From Malacoraja senta (lineage: Eukaryota), in contig CM075988.1 of NCBI GenBank assembly GCA_038087875.1, positions 1,860,001 through 1,924,000 of the forward strand: a stretch of 64,000 nucleotides of DNA, read 5' to 3'. Below are positions 4,786-59,612 of the stretch, piece after piece (the first letter of the stretch is position 1; each line of letters opens with the position of its first letter). Made by a program: the position numbers and the translations under genes. Below the pieces are notes generated by a model. It was not told where the DNA came from and made no database searches. It worked only from the letters and a program-made list of their open reading frames with translations.

Positions 4786-7699
4786 AAAATTCCTAAAATC
4801 TTTCCCCTCTCACCTTAAACCTATGTCCTCTGGTTCTTGATTCCCCTACCCTGGGTAAAAGGTTTTGTTGCAGCTCGACACTGATAATGTGTTTACTGAC
4901 CCTCAAAGAATCTACGTCTTTAACAGCTGTGCATTAATTGTCAGAGCCATAAGAATTAATCTTGAAAGAATATTTCAAACCCCATCAGCAGTGGAAGGGA
5001 TTTGCTGCTGAATGTTAATTGGACTGGCGCCCGTGGACTTCATAGTGCCGGGCTGTCGGCGAGGTTGAGCACAGCTGTGGGCAGTGCCCCTGTGATATCA
5101 ACATTTCTCTAAGTGAGAGTTTTAAATATACTTGAAACAAAAGAGGCAACTGCAGCAACACATCAGAGAGTGCCCTTTACAGGGGCTGTAACTCGAGAGA
5201 TGATTAGCTGGACAATGGTATTGGAAAAAATACTCAACTCACTAACACTAATTAAACCTCAGAGGGCCTAATGGGCACAGGCCTAGCCAAATTGCAAATA
5301 CAATCCCTTCACTAAAAATAATCTGCGTAAACAATCAGTTTCACATAATTGAGTATCAGGAATCTAGTCTCACCGCTGTGCTGACTCCACTGTGGCTTTG
5401 AAATGGACGCCGTTCCCCTCGCACCCCGGCTGCACCATGAGCAATCACTGTCCGCGGAGGATTGCAAATATTTAAACCGCTCAATTCTACCAAGCAATGT
5501 GCATCACCATCCTGTAGATTGCTCTGGTCATTTTAAAGTGAAGATGCACCTGCTGGCTGTTTAGTTTTTCTTGAATTATTCACACATTCGGACAGTGACT
5601 TGACCAGAGCAGCCTATTCTGCTGCAGCCTATTTCCAGCATATTCAGCTTTTCTTTCATATTTCTACCATCTGCATTAAAAAAATCACTTTAGCATGAAA
5701 TGGTCAGACAACGTTTCAGGTCAGGACCTTTCTTCAGACACCATGTACACTCATCCCATTTTGCATTAAAGTCATAGTCATACAGCACGGAAACAGACCC
5801 TTTGGCCCAACTTGTCCATGTCGACCAAGATGCCCCATCTACACTAGTCTCACCTGCCTGCATTTAGCTCCTATCCTTCCAAACCTTTCCTATCCATGTA
5901 CCTGTCCAAATATTGTTTAAATATTATTGTACCTGCTTCAACTCCCTCCTCTTGCAGCTCGTTCCATATACCCACCTGTATAAAAAAGTTGCTTCTCACA
6001 TTCCTATTAAATATTTCCCCTCTCACCTTCAACCTATGTCCTCTGGTTCTTGATTACCCGACTCTGGGTAAAAAACCCTGTGCATTTACCCTATCTGTTC
6101 CTCTCATGATCTTATACACCTCTATAAGATCACTCCTCATCATCTTGCACCCCAATGAATCAAGTCCTCACCTGCCCAACTCTCCCTTTAGCTCGGCCCT
6201 TCAAATCCTGGCAAATTCCTTCTAAATCATCTCTACATTTTCTCCAGGTTAACAACATCCTTCTTGAGGAAGGGTGACCAAAACTGAACACAATACAGTA
6301 CTCCAAATGCAGCCTCACTAACATCTCGTACAACTGTAACGTAATACTCCTCCTCAGTGCCCTGCCATTCACTGTGAGGGCCTGCACTGGTTTGACTTCC
6401 CAAATTGCAACACCTCATACTTATTTGCATTCATTTCCATCAACCATTCCTCAGCTCACTTACCCAACTGATGAAGATCCTGTTGTAGTTTTTGATAACC
6501 ATTTTCACTATCTACAATACTATTTACTTTAGTGTCCAAACTTACTAATCATGCCTTCTACATTCTCATCCAAATTGTTGACAAAGACCAGTGCCCAGCA
6601 CTGATCCCTTAGGCACACCACTAGTCACAGATATCGTCCATAAAACAACCTTCCACCATCACCCTCTGCTTCCTTCCAAATCTGACTCTTTCAAGTCAGC
6701 TAACTCTCCCTGGATCCCATGCGATTTAACCTTCTAGCGCAGCCTTATCAAATGCCCTCCTGAAGTCATATTGACAACGTCTATGGCTTTGCTCTTATCC
6801 TTTTTGATTACTTCATCAAAAAACTCAATTCGATTTGTAAGACATGATCTCCCACGTACAAAACCATGCTGATTCCCTAATCAACCCCTGTCAAACCAAA
6901 TGCATATATATCTTATCCCTCAGAATACCCTCCAATAACTTGCCTACAACAGATAATAGGTTCACTGGTCTTTATATTTCCTAGACTGTTCCTTGCAGCG
7001 CTTCTCAAACAAAGGTACAACATTGCCCACCCTCCAGCCTTCTGGCACCTCACCCGTGACCAATGATGAATCATATATCTTAGCCAGGGCTCCTGTAATT
7101 TTTTTTTCTTGCTCCTTGCATTAATCTGATCGCCCAGGAGATTTATCTATTTTCATACAGCTTAGGATAGTTAACACCTCCTCGACAATAATACGGACTG
7201 TCCTCAAGGCATCTTCCACTAACTGACCCAAGTTCCCCAGTCTTCATGTCATTCTCCATGATAAAAACAGGAGAGAAATACTCGTTGTGGACTTTGCTTA
7301 TCTCCTGCGGCTCGACGCAGAGGTGACCACTTTGGTTTCAGAAGGGCCCTATTCTCTCACTAGTTTTCCTCAACGTACATAAATTCACTTTGGATTTTCC
7401 TTGGTATTATCTGCCAGAGATATCTCCTGCTGACCTTTGCCCTCTTGATTTCTTTCAAGTACGCTCCTCAGTCCCCTGAAATTCCTCCAGGGATACACTC
7501 AATCCCAGCTGCCTGTATTCTTCCCATACCTCCTTTTTCTTGATCAGAACCTTAATTTCCCTCATCATCATGCTTCCATATGCCCACCTGCCTTGCCCTT
7601 CACTCTAACAGGAATATATGTATCCTGAACTCTTGTCATCACACTTTTAAAAGCATCCCACTTTCTGGACATTCCTGTGCTTACAAATAACCTACTCCA

Positions 7700-8195: not shown

Positions 8196-8307
8196 TCTCG
8201 AATCAACTTTAACAAGTTTCTGTCTAACACCATCGAAGTTGTCCTTGCCCCAATTCAGAATTTTAACTTGTGAGGCCAGCCAGTCTTTATCCGTAACTAT
8301 TTTAAAG

Positions 8308-8541
8308 TTGAAGATAGACACAAAATGCTGGAGTAACTCAGCAGGACAGGCAGCATCTCTGGAGAGAAGGAATGGGTGACATTTCGGGTCGAGACCCTTC
8401 TTCAGACATCAATCTGAAGAAGGGTCTTGAGCCGAAACATCACCGATTCCTTCTCTTCAAAGACGTTGCCTGTCCCGCTGAGTTACTCCAGCATTTTGTG
8501 TCTATCTTTGATTTAAACCAGCATCTGCAGTTCTTTACTAC
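8308..8541. mobile_element. Penelope-derived fold-back unit with hammerhead-like cores and a 12-bp TSD
   Basis: ~95-bp inverted arms 8312-8406 and 8413-8507; ACTATTTTAAAG at both 8296-8307 and 8542-8553. Confidence 0.8.
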
Positions 8542-9603
8542 ACTATTTTAAAGCTAATAGAACAGTGGTCACTGGTTCTAATAGACTCATCTACTAATGC
8601 TTCAGTCACTTGCCCATCCCAATTTCCTAAGAGTAGATCAAGGTTTGCTCTTTCCCTTGAAGGGTCCTGCCTGAGGAAACTTTCCTGAACACATTTAACA
8701 AATTCCACCCCGTCTAAGGCCTTGGCACTATGACAGTCCATCTATATTGGGAAAGTTAAAATCCCCTACAATGACAACATTATTGGTCTTGCAGCTGCCT
8801 GCAATCTTTTGGCATATTTGATTTTCTTATTGCCATTGCCTATTTGGAGGCCTGTAGTACACTCCCAACAAAATGATCACCCCCTATTTACCTGCCCGTC
8901 TTGTCATTCTCTTAGCCAGGTTTCCGTAATGGCTACCAGTTGCAAGTAACTATCCACACCCTGAGTTCATCTGCCTTACCCATCAGGCATCTCACATTAA
9001 AGTCAATGGAATTCAGTCCAACAGTGCTTCCTTGCCCCATGCCGTGTTCCTGCCTATTCTGTCCACTGAATTTTCTTTCGTCAACTTCCCAGCCTCTCAC
9101 CTGCTTCATCCCTCCATAGGATCCCACCCCCTGCCAATCTAGTTCAAACCCACCTTTGCAGCACCAGCAAACCTGCCTCCTAGGATATTGGATTCCTTCC
9201 AGTTGGTCTGTAGTCTTCCAGGCCTTGGTCATTCTCATCTTGATACTTCTCACATGTTGTGAGAGTCTCTGCCTCCAGCACCCTCTCAGGCAATGTGTTA
9301 CACACTTCATTCACTCACTGAGTACTATCGAGATAGAGAGATACAGCACGGAACAGACACATCGGCCCGCACTGGCCCATCGAAACTATTCCTACATTAA
9401 TCCCATTTTGTATTCTCTCCATATGCTCTTCACCTTCCTTTGCCCTCCCCACCCCAGATTCTACTGCTCACCTCATACTGGGGGACCAATTAACCCATCA
9501 ATCTAGAAACAAGACGCTGGAGTAACACAACTGGACAGGCAGCATCTCTGGAGAGAAGGAATGGGTAATGTTTCAGCTTGAGACCCTTCTTCAAACTGCC
9601 GCA

Positions 9604-9637
9604 GTCTGAAGAAGGGTCTCGACCCGAAACGTCACCC
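9604..9637 (+). ncRNA. Putative minimal type-I hammerhead ribozyme (best copy of many)
   Basis: CTGAAGA 9606-12, extra A, helix II GGGT-CTCG-ACCC, GAAA 9626-29, palindromic ACGT helix III and GTC triplet ending 9633; lies in fold-back unit ~9505-9735. Confidence 0.6.
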
Positions 9638-11625
9638 ATTCCTTCTCTCCAGAGATGCTGCCTGTCCCGCTGAGTTACTTCAGCTTTTTGTGTCTATCTT
9701 CGGTGTAAACCAGCATCTGCAGTTCCTGCCCACACAACCCACTGATTTGCATGTTTTGGGGATGTGGATGAAAGCAGAGTTTAGACTTTAGAGATACAGT
9801 GTGGAACCAGGCCCTTCTGCCCACCAAGTCTGCGCCGACCAGTGATCACCCCTTACACTAGCACTATCCTACACACTAGGGAAAATGTTTACAACTTACC
9901 AAAGACAATCTACAAATCTGTACGTCTTTGGAGTGTTAACATACAAGCTCCATACAGGCAGCATCCGTGGTCAGGATCGAACCCGGGTCTCTGGCGTTGT
10001 AAGGCAGCAACTCTACCACTGCGCCACTGTGCTGCCCAGTTGCCAGGGATATTCCCAGGTCACAGAGAGAACATACAAACTCCATAAAGTATTGAATCTG
10101 ATTCCATCACCTCACGCGCCAGCACATTCCAGATATCAACCACTATTTGTGTAAAACACCTGCCCCTCAGATCCTCTTTAAAACTCTCACCTTAATATGT
10201 ACCCTCTTGTTTTTGATATCCCTACCATGGAAAAAAAATTCTGACAATCCACCCGATCTATGCCTCACATAATTTTTTTTAGTTTTAGTTTAAGGTACAG
10301 CGTGGAAACAGGCCCTTCGGCCCACCGGGTCCGCGCTGACCAGCGATCCCCGCATATTAACACTAACCTACACCCACTAGAGACAATTTTTACATTTTTT
10401 ACATTTACCAAGCCAATTAACCTACATACCTGTGAGGTCATCTCTCAGCTTCCTTCACTCTGGGGATACCAAGCCTATCCTATCTCCCCACATAACTAAC
10501 CTCCTCCATTTCCGACACCATGCTGGTGAATCTGCTGCACACTCTCTCCAGCACATCCACATTCTTCCCACAGTGGGACGACACAACTACACACCATGCT
10601 CCAGTGTTTTCAAACATAACATCCCAACTTTTATATTCTCTGTCATAAAACTGCAGATGATGGTTTATACCAAAGATAGATGCAAAATTCTGGATATACT
10701 TCACAGGTTAGGTAGCATCTTTGGGGGAAATGGATAGGTGATGTTTTGTGTCGGGAGCATTCTTCTGTCTGAAGAAGGGTCCCGACCCGAAACGTCACCT
10801 ATCCATTTTCTCCAGAGATGCTGCCTGACCCACTGAGTTTACTTCAGCATTTTATGTCTATCTGACCTGACCCATACCATGTGCCTTCTCCATCACCCTA
10901 TCTATCTGTGTTGCAGGCAACTGTGGACAGGACCCTAAGGTCCCACTGTTCATCAGTGTACCTGAACACACTCCCATTTACTGTATGTTTCCTAGCCTGA
11001 TTCATTGTTACACTGCACAGAAACGTGCCCTTTGACCCAGCATCTCCATGCGTGCCCATTGACATTGATCCCATTTACCATCACTTTATCTGCAGCTTCT
11101 GTCCCTTGCTGATTCAAGTGCTTATTCAGATGCTTTGTCACTGTGGTGAGCCTGTTTAAAACAAATCTTCAGGTAATGTGTTCCAGATTGCAACCACACT
11201 CTGCGTGAAACCATTCTTCCCCTGATCACCTTAAACATATGCCTTTTGGTCTTAGACATCTCTGCATGGAGCCACGTTTCTTATCAACTACCTTGTCAAT
11301 GTCCCATGACATTGTTCATCCCTATCAGGTCCTCCCTCAGCCTTCTTTGTCTTAGGAAAACAAACCCCGTCTGTCCAGTCTCTCCCCATAACTAGAATGA
11401 ACCCTGGGCCATCTTCAAACTCCAGCAGCAGAGTGAATACAGGAGACAGGATGAGTGGCTTTAAATGAGGGCCATGAACATTGAACTTTACTTTCCCTGT
11501 AACAGTAGCTAACTTTAACTGGGAAATGTAACCAGGTTAACCCTAAATTATACTTAAGAACCTTGACAGGAAGATAAAATAAGCAATGCTAATGCCATCG
11601 CAAGTCCTGCACTAAATGTGACTAA

Positions 11626-12759: not shown

Positions 12760-13414
12760 ATCAGTAAGAACGGTGAGCACAAGAGGGATGATCATCCCAA
12801 TGTCCACACATTGACAACCTCACCCTATTTACTGGGACTAATGCTGCTCCATCAGCAGTCAGGAACACCATTCAGGACACAGCACAGACTTGGTTTGCAA
12901 CACTCTCCACCACCGTAACCACCTTCCCTCACAGCGACTACACAATACCCCATCCACAAACTGCATCTCTGCAAGGTTTCAGCAGCAGCTGCCGATCTTT
13001 CTCAATCCCACCAATAGAGGGAGCTAGTAACCAATGCAAAGCATCACTGAAAGAGCCCAGGAATATTCCAAATTAGGCACAAGGAACTGCAGGTGACGGA
13101 ACCTTGTGTAGAACACAAAGTGCTGGAGTAACTCAGCGAGTCAGACAGCATCTGAAGAAGGGCCCCAATCCAAAACATCATCTATCCATTACCTCCAGAA
13201 ATGCTGCCTGACCCGCTTAATTACACCAGCGCTTTATGTTTTATGCAAAATTATAGGTTTAGTTTGGCGTTTATCTGAATTTGATATTGCTGATAAATCT
13301 GTTTCCAAATGATCACCCCAGATCATTACACACAGATTCATAGAGTCATGCAGGGCAGAAACAGGTCCTTCAGCCCAACTCCTCCATGCTGACCAAGATG
13401 CCTCATCTAAGCAT

Positions 13415-14705
13415 ACACTGGCCCTATCCCCGAACTCTGTCTCTGTTACATTGAAAACTGCATCAGTGCTACCTCCTGCACCCATGCAGAACTCATGGAC
13501 TTCATCAACCTCACCGCCAATTTTCATCCTGCACTCAAATTTACTTGGACCATCTCTGACAGCTCCTTGCCCTTTCTTGATCTCACAGCCTTCATCACAA
13601 ATAGACTATTGACTGACGTCTATTACAAATCCACTGACTCCCACAACTATCTCGACTACACTTCTTCCCACCCTGCTTCCTACAAAGACTCTATCTCCTA
13701 CTCCCAATTCCTCCGTCTATGCCGCATCTGCGCCCAAGATGAGGAGTTCCATACTAGAACATCCGAGATGTCCTCGTTCTTTGGGAACGGGGGTTTCCCT
13801 CTCCCATCATAAATGAGGGCCTCACTCGTATCTCCTCACAGCTCCGCCCTTGCTCCCCCACCCCATAGTCGCAACAGAGACAGAGTCCCCCTAGTCCTTA
13901 CCTTCTACCAAATTAGCTGTCGCATACAACACATAATCATCTGAAATTTCCGCCACCTCCAACGGGATCCCACCACTCGCCACATTTTCCCATCTCCACC
14001 CCTTTTCGCCTTCCTCAGAGACCGTTCCTTCCTCAACTCCCACCCAAACCGCCCCCTCCCCAGGTACCTTCCCCTGCAACTGCAGAAGATGCAATACCTG
14101 TCCCTGTACCTCCTCCCTCGACTGTGTCCAGGGACCCCGACAGTCCTTTCAGGTTAGGCAGAAGTTCACTTGCACCTCGTCCAACCTCATGTACTGTAAC
14201 CTTTGTTCAAGATGTGGACTCTTATGCATCGGCGAGACCAAACGCAGACTGGGCGATCGTTTCGCTGACACCTTTGCTCAGCCCTCGAGAACCAACCTGA
14301 CCTCCCGATTGCTAAACACTTTAATTCTCCTTTCCATTCCTACACAGACCTTTCTGTCCTCGGTCTTGGAGGAACAGCAACTCATATTTTGCTTGGGCAG
14401 CTTACAGCCCAATGGTATGAGTTGTGATTTCTCTTCAGGTAGCCCCGGCATTCCCTCTCTCTCTATCCCTTCCCCACCCAAATCGCACTAGCTTCTCATT
14501 TTCACCCAACATTCATTGTTCTTTATCTCTCCACATCACCGTCTATATCTCTCGTTTCCCTAATCCCTAACCAGTCTGAAGAAGGGTCTCGACCCGAAAC
14601 ATCACCCATTCCTTCTCTCCAGAGATGATGCCTGTCCCGCTGAGTTACTCCAGCTTTTTGTGTCTATCTTCGGTTTAAACCAGCATCTGCAGTTCTTTCT
14701 TACAC
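13415..14705 (+). mobile_element. Penelope-like element: RT C-terminal half, GIY-YIG endonuclease and 3' terminal repeat (pseudogenised)
   Basis: FHPALKFTWTISDSSLPFLDL..YYKSTDSHNYLDYTSSHP..YSQFLRLCRIC (13495-13812); YCNLCSRCGLLCIGETKRRLGDRF (from 14189); hammerhead-like core at ~14576-14603. Confidence 0.88.
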
Positions 14706-15575
14706 ATGCCTCGTCTAAGCTTGTCCCTTTTGCCTGCCTTTGGCCCATATTTCTTGAAATCATTCCTATCCATGTATCTGTCCATATGTTTTTTAAATGT
14801 TCTTCTTGTACCTGCCTCAACTAATTCCTCCATATACCCACCACCCACTGAGTGAAAAAGTTGCCACTCAGGTTTCCATTAAATCGTTCCCCTCTCACCT
14901 GAACCCATGTCCACTGGTTCTTGATTCCCCTACTCCGGGTAAAAGAATCTGTGCATTCACCCCTCATGATTTTAAACACCTCTATAAGATCACCCTTCAT
15001 TCTGCTCTCTAAGGAACAAAGGCCTAGCCTATCCAACCTCTCATTTTTAGTTTAGTTTAGTTTAGAGATACAGCGTGGAAACAGGCCCTTCGGCCCACCG
15101 AGACCTCACCGACCAGCGATCCCCGCACATTAACACTATCCTTATACACACTAGGGACAACTTACACTTATATCGCCAATTAACCTAGAAACCTGTTTAA
15201 GAAAGAACTGCAGATGCTGGAAAAATCGAAGGTAGACAAAAAAGCTGGAGAAACTCAGCGGGTGAGGCAGCATTCTCATGAAGATCTTGAAGAAAACCCA
15301 TGGAGGTCATGGGGAGAACGTACAAACTCCAAAACAGACAGCACCCATAGTCGGGATCGAACCCGAGTCTCTGGCGCTGCAAGGCAACAACTCTACCGCC
15401 GCGCCACTGTGCCACCCTAGCTCTGACACGTTTTCTTTAGCATGACCAAAACTGAACACAATACTCCAAGTATGGCCTCACCAGGTCTTGTATAACTAAC
15501 ATAACGTCACAACTTCTATACTCAATACCCTGACTGATGAAGGCCAATGTGTCAAAAGCCTTCTTCACCACCCTG
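14706..15575 (-). mobile_element. CR1 3' fragment split by an HE1 SINE (~15045-15417) that itself holds a Penelope-end fragment (~15196-15275)
   Basis: DRLGLCSLESRMKGDLIEVFKIMRG..NFFTQWVVGIW; SINE (GTTTA)n tail and GGATCGAACCC B-box. Confidence 0.75.
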
Positions 15576-17024
15576 TTTATCTGTGACATCCACCCACAGT
15601 AGAGTTCAATGAAAGCTCCTCTTCAGAGAACATCAGAGTCTGAGGCAAAAGCAGAAAATACTGGAAACACTCAATAGGCCAGGCTGCATCTGTGGGAAAA
15701 GATACGGAGATAACGTTTCTGGTAGAAGATCCGTTGTCAGAACTGGAAAGGAGACAATAGAAGCGTAAAGCTGCAGGGAGGGTGGGGTGGGGAGAGGAGG
15801 TGTTTCTGATCGATTGGAACAGGGGTTGATCATGGGGATAAGCTGCAAACAAGGTTATCTGGAACATGAGTGAATGTGAACACTTAGAGAGAGAACGACA
15901 CGAGTGGGACTTGAGAGACTGTAGATGCTGGAATCATGAGCCAAAACTAGTGCTGGAGGAACTCAGCGGGTCAGGCAGCACATGTGGTTAAACGATGTTT
16001 CGCAATCCGAAACACCACCTGTACATCCCATCCACAGATGCTCCTTGATCCGCTGAGTTCCTTCAACGCTTTGTGCTTTGAACTGGAAAAAAGAACCGGG
16101 ATCAAAGAATGTGGAGTTGCAAAATAGAACGGAGGATTGGCCCAGAAGTTTAGTTTGGTTTATTGTACTATTGTCACGTGTATTGGGGCAGTGAAAAGTT
16201 ATTTTGTTCAGAAGGTCAGGATGAGCTAGTCCACCACCCCCAGAGAGAGCAAGGGAACAAGCTGAGGCAATGTTATAGATGGGCGACTGATGCAGATCCA
16301 GATATCTACTTACCTGAAAGTGTAGAATTCACCATTGTGTCCAGAAGGCTGCACCGTGCCCAGGCAGAAGGTGAGGTGTTGTTCCTCGTGCTTGTGTTGG
16401 GCCTGGCTCGGACAGTGCAGGATGGTACAGATCGATGGGTCAGAGTGGGGGTGGGATGGGGAACTAAGGTGGCAGCAATAGCAAGCGCAGCCTCATTCCT
16501 CTGGGCTGATCATGGGTATGCCATGCACCTGTTCACAATATTCAGCATTTTCCGCTTTTGTTTTAGATTTTTAGCATCTGCATATTTTGAATTTTCATCG
16601 GTGTCTGCGGAAGATGTACCCCAGAGAGTGACACTGCCTGTATGCATGAGATTGGTGTCTGTGGAATCAAGAATCAACAGTGGGGATGCTGCATTTTCCC
16701 GGTGAGGTTGTTTAGCAGCTGGTTGATGGTACACGGTCTGTTTTGTGAGTTTGGTGTCAGCATTGTGAATGACATACCCAACCCAGAGTGGCCCGAGAGT
16801 GGTTCGTGTCCCAGTGTTGGCAATGATGGCCTGCGGGAGGAAACAGACTTGCAATGATGACTGCGAAACCTGTCTTCTGGTGTTAAATATTGGCAAAGAT
16901 ACCAGCCTGAAGCTGTGACATGGGAGCAATCCAGGGGCGGCAGTTACGAGTTTGTACGTTCTGCCCGTGGGTTTTCTCTTGGGTTTCCTCCCGCATTCCA
17001 AAAAATGTAAAGGTTTGTGGGTTA

Positions 17025-17730
17025 GACACAAAATGCTGGAGTAACCCAATGGGACAGGCAGTATCTCTGGAGAGAAGGAATGGGTGACGTTTCAGGTCGA
17101 GTCCCTTTTTCAGACTGAGAGTCAGGGGAGAGGGAGTGTGTGAAAACAAGGCATCAAAAGAGATGAAGTTAAAGGAAAATATAGAATAGATGCTTGTTAG
17201 CAAGGGGAACCTGACAATAAAGCAAATAGAAATAAAATGTAGTCGGAGACAGTCGGATTGATTGGAGAACTGGGAAAGGGAGAGGAGGAGAGAGAGGGAA
17301 AGCAAGGGTTACTTGAAGTTAGAGAAGTCAATATTCATACCGCTAGGGTGTAAGCTGCCCAAGCGAAATATAAAGCGCTGGGCCTCACTCTAACAATGGG
17401 GGAGACCCAGGACAAAATTGGTCCCTTCCTACACAAACCACCCCCTCACCAGGTACTTTCCTCTGCAACCGCAGGTGATGCAACGCTTGTCCCTATACAT
17501 CCTTCCTCGACTCTGTCAAAACCGTTTTTTCAGGTGAGGCAGAGGTTCATTTGCGCCTCCTCCAACCACATCTATTGTATCCGCTGTTCCAGTGGGATAT
17601 GTCAGCAAGGCCAAGCGCAGGCTCGGCGATCATTTTGCTGAACACCTCCGCCCGGTCTGACTACGCCTACCTGATCTGCCGGTTGTTCAACACTTTAATC
17701 CCCCTCCCATTCCCACACTGACCTTTCTGT
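17025..17730. mobile_element. Penelope 3' fragments in inverted arrangement (minus ~17025-17400, plus ~17420-17730)
   Basis: Reverse hammerhead-like core 17083-17115; plus-strand FQVRQRFICASSNHIYCIRCS resembles 14150-14350. Confidence 0.7.
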
Positions 17731-18644
17731 CCCTGCACACTAACACTATCCTACACACCATGGACAATTTAGAATATTTACTAAAGCCAATTAACCTACA
17801 AACATGTACGTCATTGGAGTGTGGGAGGAATCCAGGACACCTGGAGAAAACCCATGCAGTCACAGGAGGAACGTACAAACTCCATGCAGACAGGACCCAT
17901 ACTCAGGATCGAACCCGGGTCCCTGGCGCTGTAAGGCAGCAACTCTACTGCTGCGCACTGTGCTGCCTGTAGACCAGGCACTTTGTTGATGACATGCCAG
18001 CCATGGTATGTTGGTAAATGGAATGAGTGTTTAGGGTGAGGGAAGTGTTGGCAGAAAAACAAACTGCTTTGTACAGGATGGGGTTGACTATCTGGAGTTG
18101 TTGGAATGCCATGAAGACAGAGTTTATTCCATTGTACATATGGCTTGTGTATGTCAGAAATGGCAAGTGTTATGGGGTGGCAGTAAGTGAGTCACTGAAT
18201 ATAAGGTAGCCAGCCTCTGACCCGCTCTTGTAGCTGTGGAATTTAAGTGGGTGGTCCAGCAGAATACTGGTCCTTAGTGACATTTAAAGTATTGATGGGC
18301 TATGGGAGGATGTATGTGTGTGGGTAGACTCAGTGATGGTCATACCATTGGATGACAAGGATGGGTGGTTAGAGTTTGTAATTGGTTCTGAGCTTTAACC
18401 TGAATGTTGTCACATTGAGGTCTGGACCAGTTGCATTTCAGACAATTTGCCGATGGTATTGAGACTAATTGGCAAACATCCCCACTTCTAACTGTATGAT
18501 GGGAAGAAGGCCGCTGATGACATACCTGATTTACAACATTGAAGAGGAACATGAGCAGGCAGGGTGGGGGGGGGGGGGGGGGTTGTTATGGATCACGTGC
18601 AGGCAGAAGGGATTAGTTTAACTTGTAATCTTGGTCGATACAGG

Positions 18645-22448: not shown

Positions 22449-22450
22449 CT

Positions 22451-28074: not shown

Positions 28075-28205
28075 TCTGAAGAATGGTCTTGACCGGAAAC
28101 GTCACCCATTCCTTCTCTCCAGAGATGCTGCCTGTCCCGCTGAGTTACTCCAGTTTTTTGTGTCTTTCTTTGGTTTAAACCAGCATCTGCAGTTCCTTCT
28201 TACAC
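28075..28205 (+). mobile_element. Penelope terminal repeat (single arm, hammerhead-like core) inserted in a CR1 fragment
   Basis: CTGAAGAATGGTCTTGACCGGAAACGTCACC; TTTATCAGAAT flanks both sides (~28062-72, ~28207-17). Confidence 0.7.
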
Positions 28206-28808
28206 ATTTATCAGAATGCTGCCTGGATTAAAAGATGTAAGGAGAGTTTGAACACACAACTTGTTTCCTGAAGTAATGAGGTTGAGGGAGTCCTGATTGA
28301 GGTATAAAATTATGAAAATATAAAACTAGGGCACAGAGAATGTTTTTCCAAGGGTGGAAATGTCAGACACTACAGGGCATAGCTTTAAGGACAGAGGGGG
28401 GAAGTTTAAAGGAGATGTGCGGGGCAAGTTATTCACACAGAGTTGGTGGGGACCTGGAACGCGCTGCCAGGGATGGTGGTGGAGACAGGTGCGATGGTGG
28501 TGCTTTAGAGGTTTTAAGATAGGCACGTGGATATGCAGGGAATGGAGAGATCGTAGTCGGCAGACAGAGGAGATTAGTTTATCTTGGCATCATGCTCGGC
28601 TGAGACATTGTGGGCTAAATGGCCTTTTCCTGTGTTGTACTGTTCCATTTCAATGTTAGTTGCTGGGAAATTATTGGAGAAATGCAGAAGGGGCAGGATT
28701 TATGCACGTTTGGAAAGGCAAGTGGTCAGGAAGGGTTAGCATGGCTTTGTGCAGTGAAATCCTATCTCACTGAGAGCGCTCTTATGTCTCTCAGTGAACA
28801 TATGTGCT

Positions 28809-32345: not shown

Positions 32346-33779
32346 TTATAGAGTCATATGGTCTTACAGCATGCAAACAGATCCTTTGACCCAACTTGCC
32401 CACACTGGCCAACATGTCTCATCTACACTAGTTCCACCTGCCTGTGTTTGGCCCATATTCCTCTAAACCTGTCCGAACCATGTACCTGTCTAAATGTTTC
32501 TTAAACGTTGTGATAATACTTGCCTCAACTGCCTCCTCCAGCAGCTGGTTCCATATACCTACCGCCCTTTGTGTGAAAAAAACCCTCAGGTTCCCATTAC
32601 ATTTTTTCCCCACTCACCTTAAACCTAAGATAGACACAAAATGGTGGAGTAACTCAGCGGGACAGGCAGCATCTCTTCTCTCCAGTGATGCTGCCGGTCC
32701 CGCTAAGTTACTCCAGCATAATTGTGGACAGATGCCAGTGTTGTTACTTTCTGGAGTGATTGGTTGGTGGGCTAGAGGTCTCTGAGTTTAAGTCCTCTGC
32801 TGGGATAGGGTTTGTTCCAAGAGCCTTTGTTGTGTCCAATGCTCTCGGCCATCTCTTGCTATCAGGTGGAGTGAATGGTTTGGCTGGGGACCTCAGGAAG
32901 GGGGATGAGAGGGAGCATCAGCTGAAGACTTTAGGGGGTAGAGTTTAGAGATACAGCATGGAAACAGGCCTTTCGGCCCAGCGATTCATGCACACTAACA
33001 CTACTCTACACACTAGGAACAATTTACGATTTTCCCAAACCAATAATCTACAAACCTGTACGTCTTTGGAATCCGAAGATATCGGAGAAAACCCATGCAG
33101 GTCATGGCAAGAACATACAAACTCCGGACAGACAGCACCCATAGTCAGGATTGAACCCGGGTCTCTGGTGCTGTAAGGCAGCAACTCTACCGCTATGCCA
33201 TCGTGCCGCTCCACCATGTGGCTGGACGTGATGGCAGATATGTCAACCTTCCCACCCTGAGAACTGCCAACAGTGCTGGGATCTGGGCGGTGCAGGGAGC
33301 CTCCTCCTTCTCCCATTTGCTGTTTAATTGTCCACCGCCACTCATGACGAGATGGGGTGGGCCAGCAGAGTTCAGTCTGATTGTTTACCATCAGTGTTTC
33401 AAGAACCTGTATTGCAGCTCGACGTGTTGGCTCCTCATCTCAACCTGATGCTCCCGCTCTGTCCCCTAAAGCAGGGTGATCGCCTGGACGGGCGGTAATA
33501 GCATAGTGAGGGGCCTAGTCTACAGATGGTGGTGGTGAACATTCCTGCAGCTGCTGATGGGACACATGGCTGTCCAGCTTTGAGCTGCCAGCATGGTCTA
33601 CTCACATACCCCGCGGTCGGTCTCACACATGGTGGAGGATAGTCTTGCTGATAGCAAAACAAGCTCCCATGGTGCTCCAAATAATATTGCGGTTCAGTAG
33701 CGGGTAGAGCCGCTGCCTGACAACATCGGAGTCTCACTTTTGATCCTGATCTCGGCTGCTGTCTGTGGAGTTTGCATGT

Positions 33780-40372: not shown

Positions 40373-41159
40373 GTTTAACGCTAGAGTGCCGGCCTGATAT
40401 GATCTGGCCACACTCATGCAGTGGGAGGCTGGGAGGGAGCAACATCCAGCAACGCTGTGGCTGAAGTGGAAGCGCTGGGTGATCAGCCCGGCCCCCTATC
40501 TCACCGCTCCCCACGCCACTCCCAGGCACGGCCTACAGCGGGGATCTCTGCCTCCCCCACCTTTCCAGTTCAGTTCCCGACCCACCACCTGCCGGGTGAA
40601 ACATCCTCTCTTCATCTCCCTAATCTGTCGACCACTTACTTCAAATCAATCTTCCTGATTTTAGAAATGTCAAAACAAGGAACCGCTGATGCTGGTTTAC
40701 AAAAAAAGACACCAGGTGCTGGAGTAACTCAGCGGGTCAGGCAGCATCGCTGGAGAACATGGATGGGTGACGTTTTGGGTCGAGATCCTTCAGACCTGAA
40801 GAAGATCGGTACCCTGGTTTTAGATCCCTTTGCCTACGGAAGTAACCTATTGACTCCATCTTGCCTAAATACATAGAAAATAGGTGCAGGAGTAGGCCAT
40901 TCAGCCCTTGGAGCCAGAGCCTTCTGAGGCAGAGAATTCCACAGATTCACAACTCTCTGTGTGAAAAAGATGTTCCTCATCTCAGTTCTAAATTGCCTAC
41001 CCCTATTCATTAAACTATGGCCCCAACATCAGGAACATGTTTCCTGCATCTAGCATGTCCAATCCCTTAATAATTGTATGTTTCTATAAGATACCCTCTC
41101 ATCCTTTTAAATTCCATTGAATACAAACCAAATCTGATACTACTTACATAAGTGTCCTC

Positions 41160-42692: not shown

Positions 42693-45600
42693 TCCTCTGA
42701 AGGAGGGCTATATGTATGTATTTATGTATGTATTAAATCTATGAACCACTGTTGCATAACGTTAGTACCTCCACCAATGTAAATGTAGACTAAAAAATAG
42801 TTTCTACCCATGTGCGATAAAAGAACTTAATTCCAACAGAGAACACTGGGGAAGCAAAATGTAATTCCAAGAAATGCAACATTCTTAAAAAAAAAAATTT
42901 AATACTTATTTATTATTTTTACTAATAAGTGTACATATGTGTCAATGGTTGTCATGTTTGTATTTTTTAACCGGAGGAGATGCAATGGAATTTTGTTGCA
43001 CAGTATTGTGCAATGACAATAAACGTATTTCATTTCATTTCATTTCAGGTGATCATTACAGCAGGTAACACTGGCTCTCTGAAACCCCATGAAAACCAGC
43101 ATTACGGTGTGGAAGTCCTGATAAAAAATGATTTGTTCGGCAGGGAAGCTAAATACAAAGCACCCTTGAAAACGGAGTCACTGAAGCAGGCACCCATTTA
43201 ATGTGTAGAAAAGCCAGCAATAAGACAAAGCATAGGCTTCAGTCAACACAGCGGGAGCTCAGTGCCCCAGTCTCACATCTCTCCCACCCTGCTCAGCACT
43301 GTAGTTAGTCCAGGTGAAATGTATACTGCACCATACCCTCAGGCCAGTATTAGTATTAATACTCTTCTTTGTCATCAACCACCTGGAATAATGTCAAAGG
43401 CTGCAGATGATGCAGATCTGGAGTGAACAGTGAGGAAGAAAATCAAGGGTTCAGGAGAGTATATAATAATAATAATAATAATGAATTTTATTTACGGGCG
43501 CCTTATACCGAGGTCTCAAGGACACCTTACAGAGATTTATAGGAAACATATAATCAGAATTTAAAAAAATAAGTTATAAAGACCAATACACAAATCAGGG
43601 ACAGAATTCCTTCCAAAAACACAAAAAAGAAAATCAGAAGCACAATTTGAGGAGAGAGCAGCGGCAACGAAACCGCGCCAGCGTCCACTCTCCCCTCCGA
43701 CCGCCATCTTGAACACAGACTACCAAATACAATTACAAACAATTACATACAAAAATCATCCCCTTAAACCTGCAATCATTCATTCTGGAAGCAACAGCAA
43801 GATGTAGAAAATCCACGGAAATGTATTTACCTGGTTGAAATTGACAATAAAAGTTCAGTTTGGTTTATTTAGTTTAGTTTAGTTTAGTTTATTTAGTTTA
43901 GTTTAGAGATAGAGCACGGTAACAGGTTCTTTGGCCCACCGAGTCCACGCCGACCAGCGATCCCCACGCACTAACACTATCCTACACACAAAAGGGACAA
44001 TTTACATTTATACCAAGCCAATTAACGTACAAACCTGTACATCTTTAGAGTGTGGGAGGAAAACCGGAGATCCCGGCGAAAACCCACTCGATCATAGGAG
44101 AACGTAGAAACTCCGTACAGACAGCACCCATAGTCAGGATCAAACCCGGGTCTCAGTTTCAGTTTCGTTTATTGTCACATGTACCTAGGTGCTGTGAAAA
44201 GCTTTTGTTGCATGCTATCCATTCAGCAGAAAGGCAAGACATGATTATAATTGAGCCATTACAGTGCATAGATACATGGGAAGGGAATAACATTTAGTGC
44301 AAGGTAAAGCCAGTAAAGTCCGATCAATGATAGTCCCAGGGTCACAGTTGCCTGATATCAGCTGGGAAGAATCTGTCCCTGAATCTGGAGGTGTGCGGAT
44401 CTGTGGCATTGTAAGGCACGAACTCTACCACTGTGCCACTATGCAAAACTTTGAGAATATAAGTAAAAAATATGTTTATTCATGTTAGCTTCAGGGTTTA
44501 TGCAGTTTTAAGGCTGCTGTAAGAATAATTTCAGTCAACTGCACTATTGCTGCTGCCATTTCATTCTCTGCAGCAGCACAGTGCAACCCAGTGGTGATGC
44601 TGAGCCAGGCTCCATCTACACTGTCCACATCCTCACCAAGGGTCAGGTGCAACTTGGTTTACATTCAACCATGCAGGATAAGTATTATTTCTAATGCCGT
44701 GAGTTATGGATTGTTGTACATTGTAAACTGAGTTGTGAGTGTTCACAGAGTGTTCATGGACTGTACATGCTGCGACACACCTGCTGCCTCACAACGCTAG
44801 AGACCCGGATTCGATCCTGACCTCTGGTGCTCTTTGCATGGAGTTAGCATGTCCTGGCTGTGACCACTTGGGTTTCCTCCGGATGCTTCGGTTTTCTCCC
44901 ACATCCCATGGACGTGTGGGTTTGTAGGTTACATGGCCCTCTGTAAATTGCCCCTAAAGTGTAGAGAGTGGATGGGGAAGTGTGATGGTCAGCATGGGTT
45001 CGCTGGGCTGAAGGGCCTGTTGCTCTGCTGTATTTTGCAATCAATTCAATCAACTGAATACTATATGTGTATGAAGGAACTGCAGATGCTGGTTTAAACC
45101 AAAGATAGACACAAAATGCTGCAGTAACTCAGCGGGACAGGCAGCATCTCTGGAGAGAAGAAATGGTTGACATTTCGGGAAGGGTCTCGACCCAAAACAT
45201 CACCCATTCCTTCTCTCCAAAGCTGAGTTACTCCAGCTTTTTGTGTCTCTGTGAGTTACATGATTGTACATAAATGTGAAATGGGCAGTTACATGTTGAC
45301 TACTTTGAGCTGTGTGTTATCAGGGGTTGTATTTTCAGTTTATATATTTGGTTCAGTGATAGTGTTTTTTCAATTATTTAGACTTTAGAGATACAGTACG
45401 GAAACAGGCCTTTCGGCCTACTGAGTCTGCGCCAACCAGCGGTCACTGAACACTAGCACTATCCTACACACTAGGCACAATTTACAATTTCACCAAAGCC
45501 AATTAACCTATAAACTTGTACACCTTTGGAGTGTGGGAGGAAACTGAAACTCCCGGAGAAAACCCACACAGGTCAGAAGGAGAATGTACAAACTCCGTAC

Positions 45601-48694: not shown

Positions 48695-48710
48695 TCCTTG
48701 CCTTTTTTTT

Positions 48711-49156: not shown

Positions 49157-49388
49157 TCCTTGCCTTTTTTTTATAGACAATTAGACTAAGTGGGACCTGT
49201 TTGGTCCCAGCTTCACATGGGAGGGCTGGTCCCCCAATGCAATTTTTCTACCTCTCAACAATTCGAATATTGCTGGCCAGTGGGAGGGGGGGGGGGGCTT
49301 TCTGGAACGCTAGCATGGGTGTTGTGGGCTGAAGGGGCTGGTTTCCAGAGGGCTAGTATGGACATTGTGGGCCGAATAGATTCTTGGG

Positions 49389-55590: not shown

Positions 55591-57301
55591 TGTTTAAGAA
55601 AGAACAGCAGATGCTGGAAAAATCGAAGGTAGACGAAAATGCTGCAGAAACTCAGCGGGTGAGGCAGCATCTATGGAGCGATGGAATCAGCGACATTTCG
55701 GGTCAAGAAGAAGGGTCTCGACCCAAAACGTTGCCTATTCGTGTTGTAAACACCTGTGCGGACCAACTGGCTGGAGTCTTTACGGACATTTTCAACCTCT
55801 CACTTCTGAGGTCTGAGGTCCCCACCTGCTTTAAAAGGGCATCAATTATACCAGTGCCCAAGAAGAGTAAGGTGACGTGCCTCAATGACTATCGACCTGT
55901 GGCACTAACGCCCGTGGTGATGAAGTGCTTTGTGAGGTTGATCATGGAGCAAATCAACTCCTACCTTGACAAAAACCTGGACCCACTGCAGTTCGCTTAC
56001 AGCCACAACAGCTCAACAGTGGATGCGATCTTGCTGGCCCTCCACTCCGCTCTGGACCACTTGGACAACAAAAACTCATATGTCAGGCTGTTATTCATCG
56101 ATTACAGCTCGGCATTTAACACAATCATCCCCTCCAAGCTGGTTACCAAACTCGCAGAACTGGGTCTCTGCGCATCCCTCTGCAATTGGATCCTCGACTT
56201 CCTCATTCACAGACCACAGTCTGTTCGTATTGGTGGAAAATGTGTCAGCCTCGATAACAATCAGCACGGGAGCACCTCAAGGCTGCGTGCTCAGCCCCCT
56301 GCTGTACTCACTCTATACTCATGACTGCGTAGCCGGTCACAGTGCGAACTCCATCATCAAGTTCGCTGACGACACCACTGTGGTGGGACGTATTACTGAT
56401 GGGGATGAGTCAGAGTATAGAAGAGAGATCGAGCAACTGTCCATATGGTGCCAGCACAATAACCTGGCCCTCAACACCAGCAAAACCAAGGAACTGATTG
56501 TGGACTTTGGAAGGAGTAGGATGGGGACCCACAGTCCCGTTTATATCAACGGGTCGATGGTTGAAAGGGTCAAGAACTTCAAATTCCTGGGGGTGCACAT
56601 CTCTGAAGATCTTTCCTGGTCCGAGAACACTAATGCAATTATCAAGAAAGCTCATCAGCGCCTCTACTTCCTGAGAAGATTACGGAGAGTCGGTTTGTCA
56701 AGGAGGACTCTCTCTAACTTCTGCAGGTGCACAGTAGAGAGCATGCTGACCGGTTGCATCGTGGCTTGGTTCGGCAACTTGAGCGCCCTGGAGAGGAAAA
56801 GACTACAAAAAGTAGTAAACACGGCCCAGTCCATCATCGGCTCTGACCTTCCTTCCATCGAGGGGATTTATCGCAGTTGCTGACTCAAAAAGGCTGGCAG
56901 CATCATCAAGGACCCACACCATCCTGGTCACACACTCATCTCCCTACTACCTTCAGGTAGAAGGTACAGGAGCCTGAAGACTGCAACAACCAGGTTCAGG
57001 AATAGCTACTTCCCCACAGCCATCAGGCTATTAAACCTGGCTCGGACAAAACTCTGATTATTAATAACCCATTATCTGTTATCTGCACTTTATCAGTTTA
57101 TTTATTCATGTGCTTATATATTTATATTATGGTATATGGACACACTGATCTGTTATGTAGTAAATGCCTACTATGTTCTGTGTGCTGAAGCAAAGCAAGA
57201 ATTTTATTGTCCTATCAGGGACACATGACAATAAACTCACTTGACTTGACTTGACTATTCCTTTGCTCCATAGATGCTGCCTCACCCGCTGAGTTTCTCC
57301 A
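55591..57301. mobile_element. Penelope-derived fold-back unit with a 14-bp TSD, split by Rex1
   Basis: GTGTGTTTTAAGGA at 55577-90 and 57302-15; arms 55591-55740 and 57255-57301. Confidence 0.8.
55741..57254 (+). mobile_element. Rex1/Babar LINE, 5'-truncated, nearly whole RT
   Basis: [46 protein letters not shown]; (CTTGA)n tail; CTATTC at 55735-40 and 57255-60. Confidence 0.95.
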
Positions 57302-58269
57302 GTGTGTTTTAAGGAGGTTACTCAAGAGGATTGATGAGGCAGTAAATGGGCTTTAGCAAGGTCTGGACAAGTTGCCATTAGTAGGCTGGTCTTACATTCC
57401 AGCATCTGCTGTCTCTTGTGTCTCCAGGTGCCTCATCAAGCCTGGAGTCCTGCAGCATTGCCTTCCTTTCCCTGTCCAGTTTGTGTGCGTCATTGTACCC
57501 TTTGTCGAATCCATCGAGAAGGTTGAGAGCATAGATTGGGTGTTGGCATGCAGAAGGGGCATCAGCAACTGTGACCATCTTGAGCTGGCATCAGGGACCA
57601 GGGTTACCGAAAGAGGAGCAAGGCCATGATCTTTGGACCCTGGCCCAACCGTTCAACCATCTCATTCACCATTAAATCTAACACCTGAAGATGCTGGGGA
57701 TCTGTTTTGGAGGGGCCAAGACTTCAAACAAAAATTGAATGGAATGGATAATTGTGGGAATGGCGCTCCCTCTCAATAATCCAGTCATTGTTTCTTAAGC
57801 TGGAAAGGTGCAGAAAATAATTACGAGGATGTTGCCAGGACTCTAGGGCCTGAGCTACAGGGAAAGGTTAAGCCGGGGCTCTATTCCTTGGGACATATGA
57901 GGCTGAGGGGTGATCTTATAGAGGTGCATATGAGGGAAATACTGTAGATTGGGTAGACGCACAGAGTCCTTTAGGCAGAGTAGAGGATTAAAGGACCGGA
58001 GGACATAGGTTTTAGGTGAGGGGGGGGGAAGATTTAATAGGAACCTGAGGGGCAGTTTTTTACACAAAGGGAACGAGCTGCTGGTGGAGGTAGTTGAGGC
58101 AGGTAATATCACAACGCTTAGGAAACATTTAGACAGGTTCATTGGTTGGACAGGTTTAGAGGGATATGAGCCAAACACAGGCAAATGGGACTAGTTCAGA
58201 TGGGACATGTTGGTCGGCATGGACAGGTTGGGCCGATGGGCCTGTTTCCACGCTGCATGACTCAATGTC

Positions 58270-59612
58270 CTATCAGGGGTGAGGTGCTGTCGATGTTGCT
58301 CCACAGAGCAGGTATTGCCCATTCCCCACTCCACCGCCCCGCTGATCCTACCTGAACTATCCTCCCGTCCATCAGGGGGTTCAGGAGGGAGTGGGTACGA
58401 TGAGTCACGATGTACAAATCCCTGGACAACGGAGCAAAAGTTTACCCCTCATCCTGACGGCCACCTTTGTGTGTGGCTGCATCAGGCTGTAGGTAGAGCC
58501 AAAGCACATGGACTCCAAGTGCCGTGTGCCCCATTTCCATGCAAGGTGCCAGTCAGCTGCAACTGCCGAACTAACCGTCCTTTGTGGAAAGGGTTTTCCA
58601 AACCAACATGTAATAAAAATGAACTGCAGATGCTGGCTTATACCAAAGACAGACAAAAAATGCTGGAGTAAATCAGCGGGTCAGGCAGCATCTCTGGAGA
58701 ACATGGTTAGGTCATGTTTTCAGTGGGGTCTGAAGATGGGCCCCCGACCAGAAACGTCACCTATTAATTTTCTCCAAAGATGCTGCCTGACCGGTGGTGT
58801 TACTCCAGCATTTTGTGCCTATCTTTACCAGGCTAACACCTTGAACCACAAGTCCACCAGACAGTTGTCCCCTTGGATCCTGAGCACAGTCCAGATCATT
58901 GGCAGAATGTCTCAGCGTAGCTCTCACCGTAAGCACCAAGGCCTCACGAGGCTGGTGGTGAGAGGGGCTCTCTGACAGGACCCTTCCTTGACAGTTAGAG
59001 TATCAGGTCCAGCGCACGCTGCCCTTGGGATGGCTGCGGTGGGGGAGACCGCTTAGTGGGCTGTCCATTTGCAGAGTGGGTCTGGAGAAGGAAGCAAGGA
59101 CCCTGGTCACGGTTCATCCCAAGCAACGGTGTAGCAGAGGACAAGCTGTTCCCTGCGACACACAGAGAGATGGACATCGAGTGCTGCTGGAAGGCCACCA
59201 GCTCTTTGGTCTGCCCGAAACCAATCGGTCTCCCCTCACAGCGAGACGGCCGTCAGGGAATGTTGCATTCCAGACTGCAGGAGTACCTGCTGAGGGACAC
59301 ACGGAAGTTCGGTGCAGCCAACACCAAGGCTCTGTGGGGCAGACCGCAGGCCAGGGTCCTACGGGCATTGGGGGGCCGGGTCTGGTGGGCAATCCCTCAG
59401 ACACAGGAGTTTGTGCGGGGGATGCATGAGTGGCAATGGTGCTGTAAACGCAACAGTGTGTGCACACCACTCATGTATAGAACCCACGGCACTGTGAATG
59501 TAGAGAGGAAACAGCACTATCAATGTCACGGGCCACACACTCAGCTTTACTTTTGTACTGACATATAATTGTTATTATGGACAAAGTTCATACTAAAAAT
59601 TAATAAAAAACT
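58270..59612 (+). mobile_element. Degenerate Tx1/L1-clade LINE 3' part, with a Penelope fold-back at ~58615-58825
   Basis: KHQGLTRLVVRGAL, CGGE..FAE..W, SRFIPS..IECCWK; A-rich tail. Confidence 0.55.

What the first reader, a model, noticed from the sequence alone, without database searches (positions are those of the whole stretch)
8308..9735. Mobile fold-back units with a hammerhead ribozyme core on both strands (retrozyme-like Penelope derivatives)
Seen: a ~200-bp palindromic unit recurs at ~8308-8541, 9505-9735, 10650-10865, 13080-13245, 45070-45250, 55591-57301 (split) and 58615-58825, with single arms at 5700, 14575, 17083, 28075, 40765, 60795 and 61374. The best arms read CTGAAGA-A-GGGT/ACCC-GAAA-CGTC. 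Helix II co-varies between copies (GGGTC/GACCC versus GGTC/GACC at 28075). Two units have clean TSDs (12 bp at 8296/8542, 14 bp at 55577/57302) and no coding sequence. Known: Penelope-like elements carry minimal hammerheads with a palindromic helix III and often have inverted termini. Inference: these may be a non-autonomous self-cleaving family, or repeated extreme truncation-inversion products. A transcript from either strand would hold one sense ribozyme plus its antisense, a possible switch between cleavage and long dsRNA. The extra A after the core and the very short helix I in most copies are caveats.
Basis: partly seen in the sequence, partly recalled or inferred. Interest (0 to 1): 0.7.

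Follow-up and report, generated by a model that had tools for sequence, protein, structure and literature searches.

The report
Head-to-head Penelope retrotransposon end stubs
These ~200-base mirror-image repeats are pairs of short end pieces of a Penelope-type jumping gene joined head to head, a layout already described for this class, and they are likely one-off insertion leftovers carrying a mostly broken self-cutting RNA motif rather than a new self-copying family.

Summary
The repeats are real. Each arm is the last 95 or 131 nt of a Neptune-type Penelope-like element (PLE). Nine head-to-head units occur, from four subfamilies. The minimal hammerhead, its extra A and the inverted-copy-plus-tail layout are published (PMC4209133, PMC8557442, PMC3846280). 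Only 3 of 18 arms keep a complete motif, never both arms of a unit, and the hairpin is predicted to bury it by 35-45 kcal/mol. In contigs of three other runs, copy ends pile up at two 3' sites 36 nt apart and at the ribozyme's front edge, not at its cut. One small lead: the untailed arm reaches further 5' in 5 of 5 lopsided units. This scan found the same thing before in at least nine other windows.

The parts
8308..8541 (.). Head-to-head unit: untailed arm 8310-8407 (-), tailed arm 8410-8541 (+); subfamily A
8296..8307 (+). Left copy of 12-bp TSD (right copy 8542-8553)
9504..9736 (.). Head-to-head unit: untailed arm 9504-9598 (-, core mutated), tailed arm 9602-9736 (+); no TSD above chance
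9604..9635 (+). Complete minimal type I hammerhead motif (2-bp helix I, extra A, 4-5-bp helix II, palindromic 4-nt helix III); predicted cut after 9633
10641..10863 (.). Head-to-head unit, tailed arm left (decayed), untailed arm right with complete motif at 10769; subfamily B
13081..13245 (.). Lopsided unit: tailed arm starts at about +47, untailed at 0, 3-nt microhomology at the join
13413..14705 (+). 5'-truncated, frameshifted Neptune-type PLE: RT C-terminal part, Cys linker, GIY-YIG remnant, 3' UTR, hammerhead arm (14572-14671) and tail (14672-14706); TSD 13398-13412/14706-14720 (15 bp, 1 mismatch)
14439..14574 (+). Putative intron (inferred): GT donor over the ORF stop codon, pyrimidine tract, AG acceptor directly before the hammerhead core
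   Evidence: donor in 3 copies, acceptor in 4; not shown by RNA
15194..15275 (-). Single tailed arm without the core, subfamily C, inside another repeat
15914..16080 (.). Older lopsided unit, subfamily D, no core on either arm
16313..16471 (-). C-terminal piece of an older PLE ORF ending on a consensus donor
17020..17732 (-). Second ORF-bearing PLE remnant: untailed arm 17023-17117, UTR, ORF end, and an internally inverted GIY-YIG piece 17427-17732
28075..28206 (+). Single tailed arm starting at the core, 11-bp TSD 28062-28072/28207-28217
32619..32726 (.). Short unit joined at about +46/+38; neither arm has a tail or a core
40672..40812 (-). Single tailed arm with a 9-nt inverted stub at its 5' end; possible 12-bp TSD (1 mismatch, borderline)
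45065..45250 (.). Lopsided unit: tailed arm from +18, untailed from +6; no core
55591..57302 (.). Lopsided unit of subfamily C (tailed arm from +12, untailed from +3 to +5), right arm split by a LINE (about 55741-57256); 14-bp TSD
58609..58826 (.). Lopsided unit: tailed arm from +12 to +22, untailed from -1; subfamily B
60786..61055 (-). PLE UTR-like stretch plus mutated core on the minus strand, with a lone tail in opposite orientation at its 5' end (about 61021-61055)
   Evidence: read by eye
61372..61465 (+). Arm with internal deletions (cut site lost), preceded by a pyrimidine tract
62734..62852 (-). Older single tailed arm from +5
5711..5739 (-). Old hammerhead motif with an A-U pair at 10.1-11.1

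Best explanation
The units are two short copies of the 3' end of a Neptune-type Penelope-like retrotransposon joined head to head, and each one likely arose once, during insertion, as a dead-end product. Shown: arm identity with an ORF-bearing PLE end, two preferred 3' end points 36 nt apart, a tail on one arm only, different centres, 11-15-bp TSDs. Inferred: the element's RT-endonuclease makes a staggered cut in AT-rich DNA; both DNA ends prime reverse transcription, one at the proximal and one at the distal internal start site; both cDNAs stop at or inside the hammerhead region (limit about -3 to 0, 28-31 nt upstream of the cut); they are joined through a few matching bases and filled in. 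The hammerhead is the parent's known minimal motif, carried as a passenger and decaying.
For: Arms match the 3' end of 13413-14705 at 69-95%. That copy aligns with elasmobranch RT + GIY-YIG proteins (E 2e-81; Pfam RVT_1 and GIY-YIG in those relatives) and has its own TSD. Nine units, nine different centres. The two arms share subfamily marks in 9 of 9 units across four subfamilies (assigned by eye; P 4.6e-5 under random pairing). Exactly one tail in 8 of 9 (P 0.02 at p = 0.5). In run X1, 3' ends pile at 14670/14671 (1018, 1254 contigs) and 14706/14707 (1145, 1034) with AT-rich flanks; X15 shows the same two sites. 5' ends pile at 14572-14575 in X1 (1175/694/688/456) and X5 (1046/679/623/407); the cut position 14604 is not among the six rows shown per run. 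The 7 opposite-strand joins shown are all different, 0-9 contigs each. G12 is G>A in 16% (X1) and 14% (X5) of summed depth, no lower than other CpG sites. Literature: inverted 5'-truncated copy plus one-sided 30-40-bp tail (PMC8557442 passages; PMC3846280 passages); two RT start sites define the tail, both strands are cut and extended, ribozyme cleavage is dispensable in vitro (PMC11167929 main text).
Against: Only 2 of 9 units have a TSD above chance. Unit 32620 has no tail. The contig data are de Bruijn contigs, both calls were overloaded, most rows were hidden (508 and 48 joints, 1605 and 354 loose ends), and near-symmetric centres may be under-reported, so a shared centre elsewhere in the genome is not excluded. 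The joins do not say which arm is tailed. The in vitro data come from a Poseidon-clade element, not Neptune. Double priming is inferred: antisense self-priming also fits the polarity. The reason for the 5' limit is unexplained. No whole genome was held.
Confidence: 0.8

Rival explanations
1. Same origin, different mechanism: the palindrome forms by self-priming (fold-back) of a cDNA or of an antisense template, as proposed for rotifer PLEs, and the endonuclease trims one end.
For: PMC3846280 discussion favours self-priming on an antisense template. Joins use 1-3-nt microhomologies inside quasi-palindromic sequence. The 9-nt inverted stub at 40765 looks like a short fold-back. The antisense version would make the tailed arm the shorter one at the centre, as seen.
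Against: Fold-back of a tail-primed cDNA predicts that the tailed arm reaches further 5'; the opposite holds in 5 of 5 lopsided units (P 0.03; three units are near-symmetric). The untailed end at +95/96 also terminates 17023, which has no mirror arm, and fits a direct RT start site (PMC11167929). No antisense template was shown here.
Confidence: 0.12
2. The palindrome is itself a replicating non-autonomous element (retrozyme-like or MITE-like) whose ribozyme releases unit-length RNA.
For: ORF-less, recurring, similar length, TSDs on 2 of 9. Animal retrozymes derive from PLE pLTRs (bioRxiv 10.64898/2026.07.22.740005, parts 1-2 of 5 read).
Against: No two centres alike among 9 units or among the 7 joins shown from other runs. 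Four subfamilies. 10 of 18 arms lack the core and no unit has two complete motifs. Copy ends do not map to the cut. No head-to-tail arrays of the unit in the window. Arms of one unit are not closer to each other than to other copies in subfamily A (partner ranks 2-12).
Confidence: 0.05
3. A transcript of the unit switches between self-cleavage and long dsRNA and has a regulatory role.
For: Units fold into 90-100-bp hairpins of -73 to -167 kcal/mol. The family is present in contigs of a run guessed to be RNA (X15), which does not show transcription.
Against: The antisense arm is made first from either strand; the hammerhead-compatible ensemble lies 35, 36 and 45 kcal/mol higher in the three units tested, and the transcript prefix ending at 9640 is already paired (tertiary and dimer energy not modelled). 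The motif needs a dimer and cleaves weakly (PMC4209133). No A>G strand bias in 19 arms.
Confidence: 0.03

Closest known systems
Complex insertions of EN+ Penelope-like elements: inverted 5'-truncated copy, 30-40-bp tail at one end, TSD (PMC8557442 Fig. 2 legend and passages; A. vaga Pen2a in PMC3846280 passages; D. virilis Penelope, PMC2377424 parts 2-3)
   Same: Head-to-head inverted ends, one-sided tail, TSD, palindromic junction, parent with RT + C-terminal GIY-YIG.
   Different: Here both copies are cut down to 50-131 nt, so no ORF lies between them; TSDs are 11-15 bp against 8-10 bp in the rotifer; very high density (9 units in 64 kb).
Minimal type I hammerheads of metazoan PLEs (PMC4209133, parts 1-2 of 4 read)
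   Same: Extra nucleotide between 9 and 10.1, G10.1-C11.1, palindromic 15.2-16.2 without loop 3; pairs on opposite strands 100-700 bp apart already noted; intron end at helix I as in D. virilis.
   Different: Helix I is 2 bp (as in D. virilis; 4-5 bp in S. mansoni) and helix II is 4-5 bp, shorter than the 6-8 bp reported; opposed motifs here are under 40 bp apart.
Poseidon element PAc of Anolis (PMC11167929, parts 1-2 of 4 read)
   Same: Two end points about 35 nt apart that define the tail, AT-rich targets, copy ends not at the ribozyme cut.
   Different: Different clade; no conserved ORF start inside the hammerhead was established here.
Non-LTR retrozymes of animals (PMC7229834 passages; bioRxiv 10.64898/2026.07.22.740005)
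   Same: ORF-less, type I hammerhead, PLE pLTR ancestry.
   Different: Retrozymes are head-to-tail arrays with a motif in each unit and give circular RNAs; these are head-to-head pairs, mostly without a complete motif.

Membership tests
EN+ Penelope-like element (C-terminal EN) | RT followed by a C-terminal GIY-YIG endonuclease in the parent | tested here: met
   13413-14437 aligns to P0001/P0002/P0005 at 45-50% (E to 2e-81); 5 of 5 relatives scanned hit GIY-YIG and 3 of 5 hit RVT_1. The broken window pieces themselves hit no Pfam family.
EN+ Penelope-like element (C-terminal EN) | Inverted 5'-truncated copy and 30-40-bp tail at one end | tested here: met
   8 of 9 units; two end points 36 nt apart in X1 and X15.
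EN+ Penelope-like element (C-terminal EN) | Full-length copy in partial tandem forming a pLTR | not testable with these tools
   No full-length copy in the window, no genome held, no match in the three prokaryote/virus/metagenome collections.
EN+ Penelope-like element (C-terminal EN) | Spliceosomal intron in the pLTR ending at the hammerhead | tested here: inconclusive
   GT donor over the stop codon in 3 copies and AG acceptor before the core in 4; no spliced join among the 15 rows shown for X15/X1.
Neptune clade | CX2-5CxxC linker before the endonuclease (shared with Nematis; PMC8557442) | tested here: met
   C-X4-C-X2-C-type motif at about 14070-14100 and in the relatives.
Neptune clade | RT phylogeny with Neptune references | not tested
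   No named reference set was available; Neptune versus Nematis is not resolved.
PLE minimal type I hammerhead | CUGANGA, extra nucleotide, helix II with G10.1-C11.1, GAAA, palindromic 15.2-16.2, UH cut | tested here: met
   Complete at 9606 and 10769, with a wobble at 8405. Rfam gave no hammerhead hit at E up to 1.
PLE minimal type I hammerhead | Self-cleavage as a dimer | not testable with these tools
   Needs an assay; Vienna cofold does not give the hammerhead dimer as minimum.
Non-LTR retrozyme | Head-to-tail tandem units, each with a complete hammerhead | tested here: not met
   Units are head to head; 3 of 18 arms complete. Head-to-tail-type joins occur in other runs with unknown spacers.
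Non-LTR retrozyme | Abundant unit-length linear and circular RNA with ends at the cut | not testable with these tools
   No raw RNA reads offered; DNA copy ends do not pile at the cut.
Replicating palindromic element (MITE-like) | Shared internal structure (same centre) and fixed TSD length among copies | tested here: not met
   9 different centres; TSDs 12 and 14 bp.

The most novel reading that the evidence does not exclude
The stubs are a fossil record of the PLE integration complex. One RNA would be primed from both target ends at the two internal start sites, with a leading polymerase running to a fixed 5' limit (-3 to 0, at once an intron acceptor and an initiator-like TCAGT) and a trailing, tail-primed polymerase lagging behind. 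That would give the rule seen here (one tail per unit; untailed arm reaches further), settle how PLE inverted repeats form, and tie the copy boundary to the PLE intron or start site instead of the ribozyme cut.
Probability: 0.3. Interest if true: 0.5.

Novelty: new member of a known kind. Interest (0 to 1): 0.22.

Why it matters
As a discovery it is ordinary: a known retroelement class, a known ribozyme variant and a known insertion layout, here in minimal form and at very high density. The value left is as material. How PLEs make inverted ends and what their hammerheads and introns do are open questions, and a shark or ray genome holds enough of these stubs to count tail asymmetry, arm polarity and 5' limits at base resolution. 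Nine 90-100-bp hairpins per 64 kb could also be a large passive source of dsRNA where they sit in transcripts, though nothing here shows that.

Tried and rejected
No whole genome was held. Pattern scans found nothing in metagenome contigs, viral contigs or prokaryote genomes. Rfam at E up to 1 gave 8 sub-threshold hairpin hits and no hammerhead. The two raw-read DNA runs X22 and X23 laid 0 reads and test nothing. Summed contig depth is far higher over the arm than over the ORF, but it is no copy number and was not used. X15 is only guessed to be RNA and was not taken as proof of transcription. A splicing-activated ribozyme was considered: joining the putative exon end to the core does not lengthen helix I (read by eye), so it was dropped. 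An ADAR scar, a lead from e1-9141068, was not seen in 19 arms of subfamilies A and B; the B majority is loose, and C and D were not tested. An A/T variant at 14655 differs between the arms of 45070 and might mean two source RNAs, but it varies in two subfamilies and was judged undiagnostic. In one search three rows (9505L, 10650L, 60795) were one base out of register; their mutated cores are read. Pfam found no host exon among 14 further ORFs. Lunse et al. 2017 was not held and is known only through PMC6765202 passages. Searches for a description of this family in sharks or skates (listings only) gave none, but the library lacks most subscription papers and Repbase/Dfam were not available. No supplements were read; supplementary figures of PMC4209133 and PMC11167929 may bear on helix sizes and start sites.
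Full report
Setting. The window is repeat-rich vertebrate DNA; the closest named relatives of its Penelope protein come from sharks and rays. No whole genome was held. Arm positions below count from the first C of the CUGAAGA box as +1 (window 14576), so the predicted cut lies between +28 and +29.

Observation. A search with the 9505 unit found related pieces at about 20 loci. The hammerhead motif matches 7 times and the arm body 18 times at up to 3 mismatches, against 0.00 in 100 shuffles. Nine head-to-head units exist: the seven listed, plus 15914-16080 and 32619-32726. The title overstates the ribozyme. Only 8308 keeps both conserved boxes on both strands. Of 18 arms, 10 lost the first box at the join, 5 are mutated and 3 are complete, never two in one unit (three rows there were out of register and are read).

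What the arms are. The 'single arm' at 14575 is the 3' end of a 1.3-kb element, 13413-14705. It aligns with elasmobranch proteins over the RT C-terminal part, a cysteine linker and the endonuclease (45-50%, E to 2e-81). Five of five such relatives hit Pfam GIY-YIG and three hit RVT_1, although the broken window pieces hit nothing themselves. The element has its own 15-bp TSD with one mismatch. A second remnant ends at 17023 and holds an internal inversion; a third ORF end lies at 16471-16313. The linker motif points to the Neptune or Nematis clades (PMC8557442 passages); no tree was built. So each arm is the last 95 or 131 nt of a PLE.

Anatomy of the units. The arms point outwards, with 3' ends at the flanks. 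Eight of nine units have one arm ending near +123 to +132 (with tail) and one ending at +78 to +96 (without); 32620 has no tail (P 0.02 at p = 0.5). All nine centres differ. Approximate tailed/untailed starts are: 8308, -3 or 0/-1; 9505, -3/-3; 10650, +1/-1; 13080, +47/0; 15920, +20/+15; 45070, +18/+6; 55591, +12/+3 to +5; 58615, +12 to +22/-1; and 32620, +46/+38 with no tail. These were read by eye, and microhomologies of 1-3 nt blur them. No arm of a unit extends upstream of about -4. The two arms carry the same subfamily marks in 9 of 9 units over four subfamilies (P 4.6e-5), yet within subfamily A an arm's partner ranks only 2nd to 12th among its neighbours. That is what independent, repeated formation followed by neutral decay gives.

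Evidence from other runs. The search listed 23 runs, 20 holding the stretch; five were laid. X22 and X23 gave 0 reads. In X1, 311,756 contigs were laid, and the six loose-end rows shown were 3' ends at 14670, 14671, 14706 and 14707 (1018, 1254, 1145, 1034 contigs, AT-rich flanks) and 5' ends at 14572 and 14573; X15 shows the same two 3' sites. On the hammerhead region, 5' ends stand at 14572-14575 in X1 (1175, 694, 688, 456) and X5 (1046, 679, 623, 407); the 14572 class also holds longer copies with another UTR. The cut position 14604 is not among the six rows per run, whose lowest counts are 235 and 124. Seven of the 15 joints shown are opposite-strand joins, all different, with 0-9 contigs each. 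The essential G12 (role recalled) is G>A in 16% and 14% of summed depth, no lower than neighbouring CpG sites. Limits: these are de Bruijn contigs, both calls were overloaded, most rows were hidden, and symmetric centres may be missed.

The ribozyme. The motif fits the published PLE minimal hammerhead. The nucleotide between 9 and 10.1 is a conserved feature, a 2-bp helix I is known from D. virilis, single motifs did not cleave and dimers cleaved weakly, and pairs on opposite strands 100-700 bp apart were already noted (PMC4209133 parts 1-2). Pair support among 14 window motifs is modest. In a head-to-head unit either transcript makes the antisense arm first. The hammerhead-compatible ensemble is predicted 35, 36 and 45 kcal/mol above the free ensemble in the three units tested, against 6 and 14 for two single arms, and the prefix ending at 9640 is already a hairpin (tertiary and dimer terms not modelled). 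No A>G strand bias appears in 19 arms. A cleavage/dsRNA switch is therefore unlikely.

How it likely works. Known: PLE insertions often have an inverted 5'-truncated copy and a 30-40-bp tail at one end (PMC8557442; PMC3846280 passages; PMC2377424 parts 2-3). A purified Poseidon protein cuts and extends both target strands at AT-rich sites, starts at two internal positions that define the tail, is predicted to be a dimer, and does not need ribozyme cleavage (PMC11167929 parts 1-2). Inferred: here both ends of a staggered cut are primed, one at +95/96 and one at +131/132, both cDNAs stop in or just before the hammerhead, and they are joined by microhomology. One-sided priming gives singles such as 28075 and 13413-14705. 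The published rival is self-priming. Fold-back of a tail-primed cDNA would make the tailed arm reach further 5'; in 5 of 5 lopsided units the untailed arm does (P 0.03; three more are near-symmetric). The antisense-template version of PMC3846280 fits this polarity and stays open.

Unexplained. Short copies stop at -3 to 0, not at the cut. That site is an AG after a pyrimidine tract in four longer copies, with a GT donor over the ORF stop codon in three, which parallels the D. virilis intron that ends at helix I. It also reads like an initiator (consensus recalled). The counts favour a template that includes the AG, hence a start site over a spliced join, but no RNA evidence was obtained.

Verdict. 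Real, correctly tied to Penelope, and ordinary: the minimal form of a described insertion layout with a described ribozyme variant. It is not a retrozyme (head-to-tail test not met) and not a replicating palindrome (shared-centre test not met). Searches (listings only) found no paper on this family in sharks or rays, but Repbase, Dfam and most subscription papers were out of reach. Nine earlier notes of this scan reached the same reading on other DNA; my reading was written down before them and they were not counted as support. Interest 0.22.

Noticed in passing
window 20500-25214 (-): DIRS-like retroelement remnant: ORFs resembling gag, RT and RNase H (by eye) and a tyrosine recombinase (PF00589, E 3e-6), interrupted by a LINE piece.
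   Followed up: partly
window 46320-54960 (-): Broken Gypsy-type LTR retrotransposon (RVT_1, RT_RNaseH, Integrase_H2C2), interrupted by a CR1-like LINE piece and two tandem arrays (49386-50606, 51369-51851).
   Followed up: partly
window 60308-60471 and 61023-60861: 93% identical inverted pair of PLE UTR-like sequence with nearly the same 5' limit, facing each other; possibly a local inverted duplication. A lone tail in opposite orientation follows at about 61021-61055.
   Followed up: partly
window 17427-17732: Internal inversion in a PLE copy: the inverted piece (14038-14359 equivalent) abuts the direct piece (from 14369), as in twin priming on one RNA.
   Followed up: partly
runs X1 and X15 laid on window 13900-14720: Six of the 15 best joints link the short end (14669-14671) to the long end (14705-14707) on opposite strands, 9-21 contigs each in X1. 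They may be neighbouring or nested insertions, or tandem units; spacers were not shown.
   Followed up: no
window 8404-8414 and 28073-28076: Two copies have AA directly before the T that precedes the core, as the putative spliced join of one donor variant would give; a point change or AT-rich filler explains it equally.
   Followed up: partly
window 32612-32626: The flank of the untailed end matches the first 7 bases of the tail, hinting at target similarity or microhomology at priming.
   Followed up: no
window 25713-26268 and 47671-48231: Two CR1-like LINE 3' pieces 95% identical; a short SINE-like family also recurs more than ten times.
   Followed up: no
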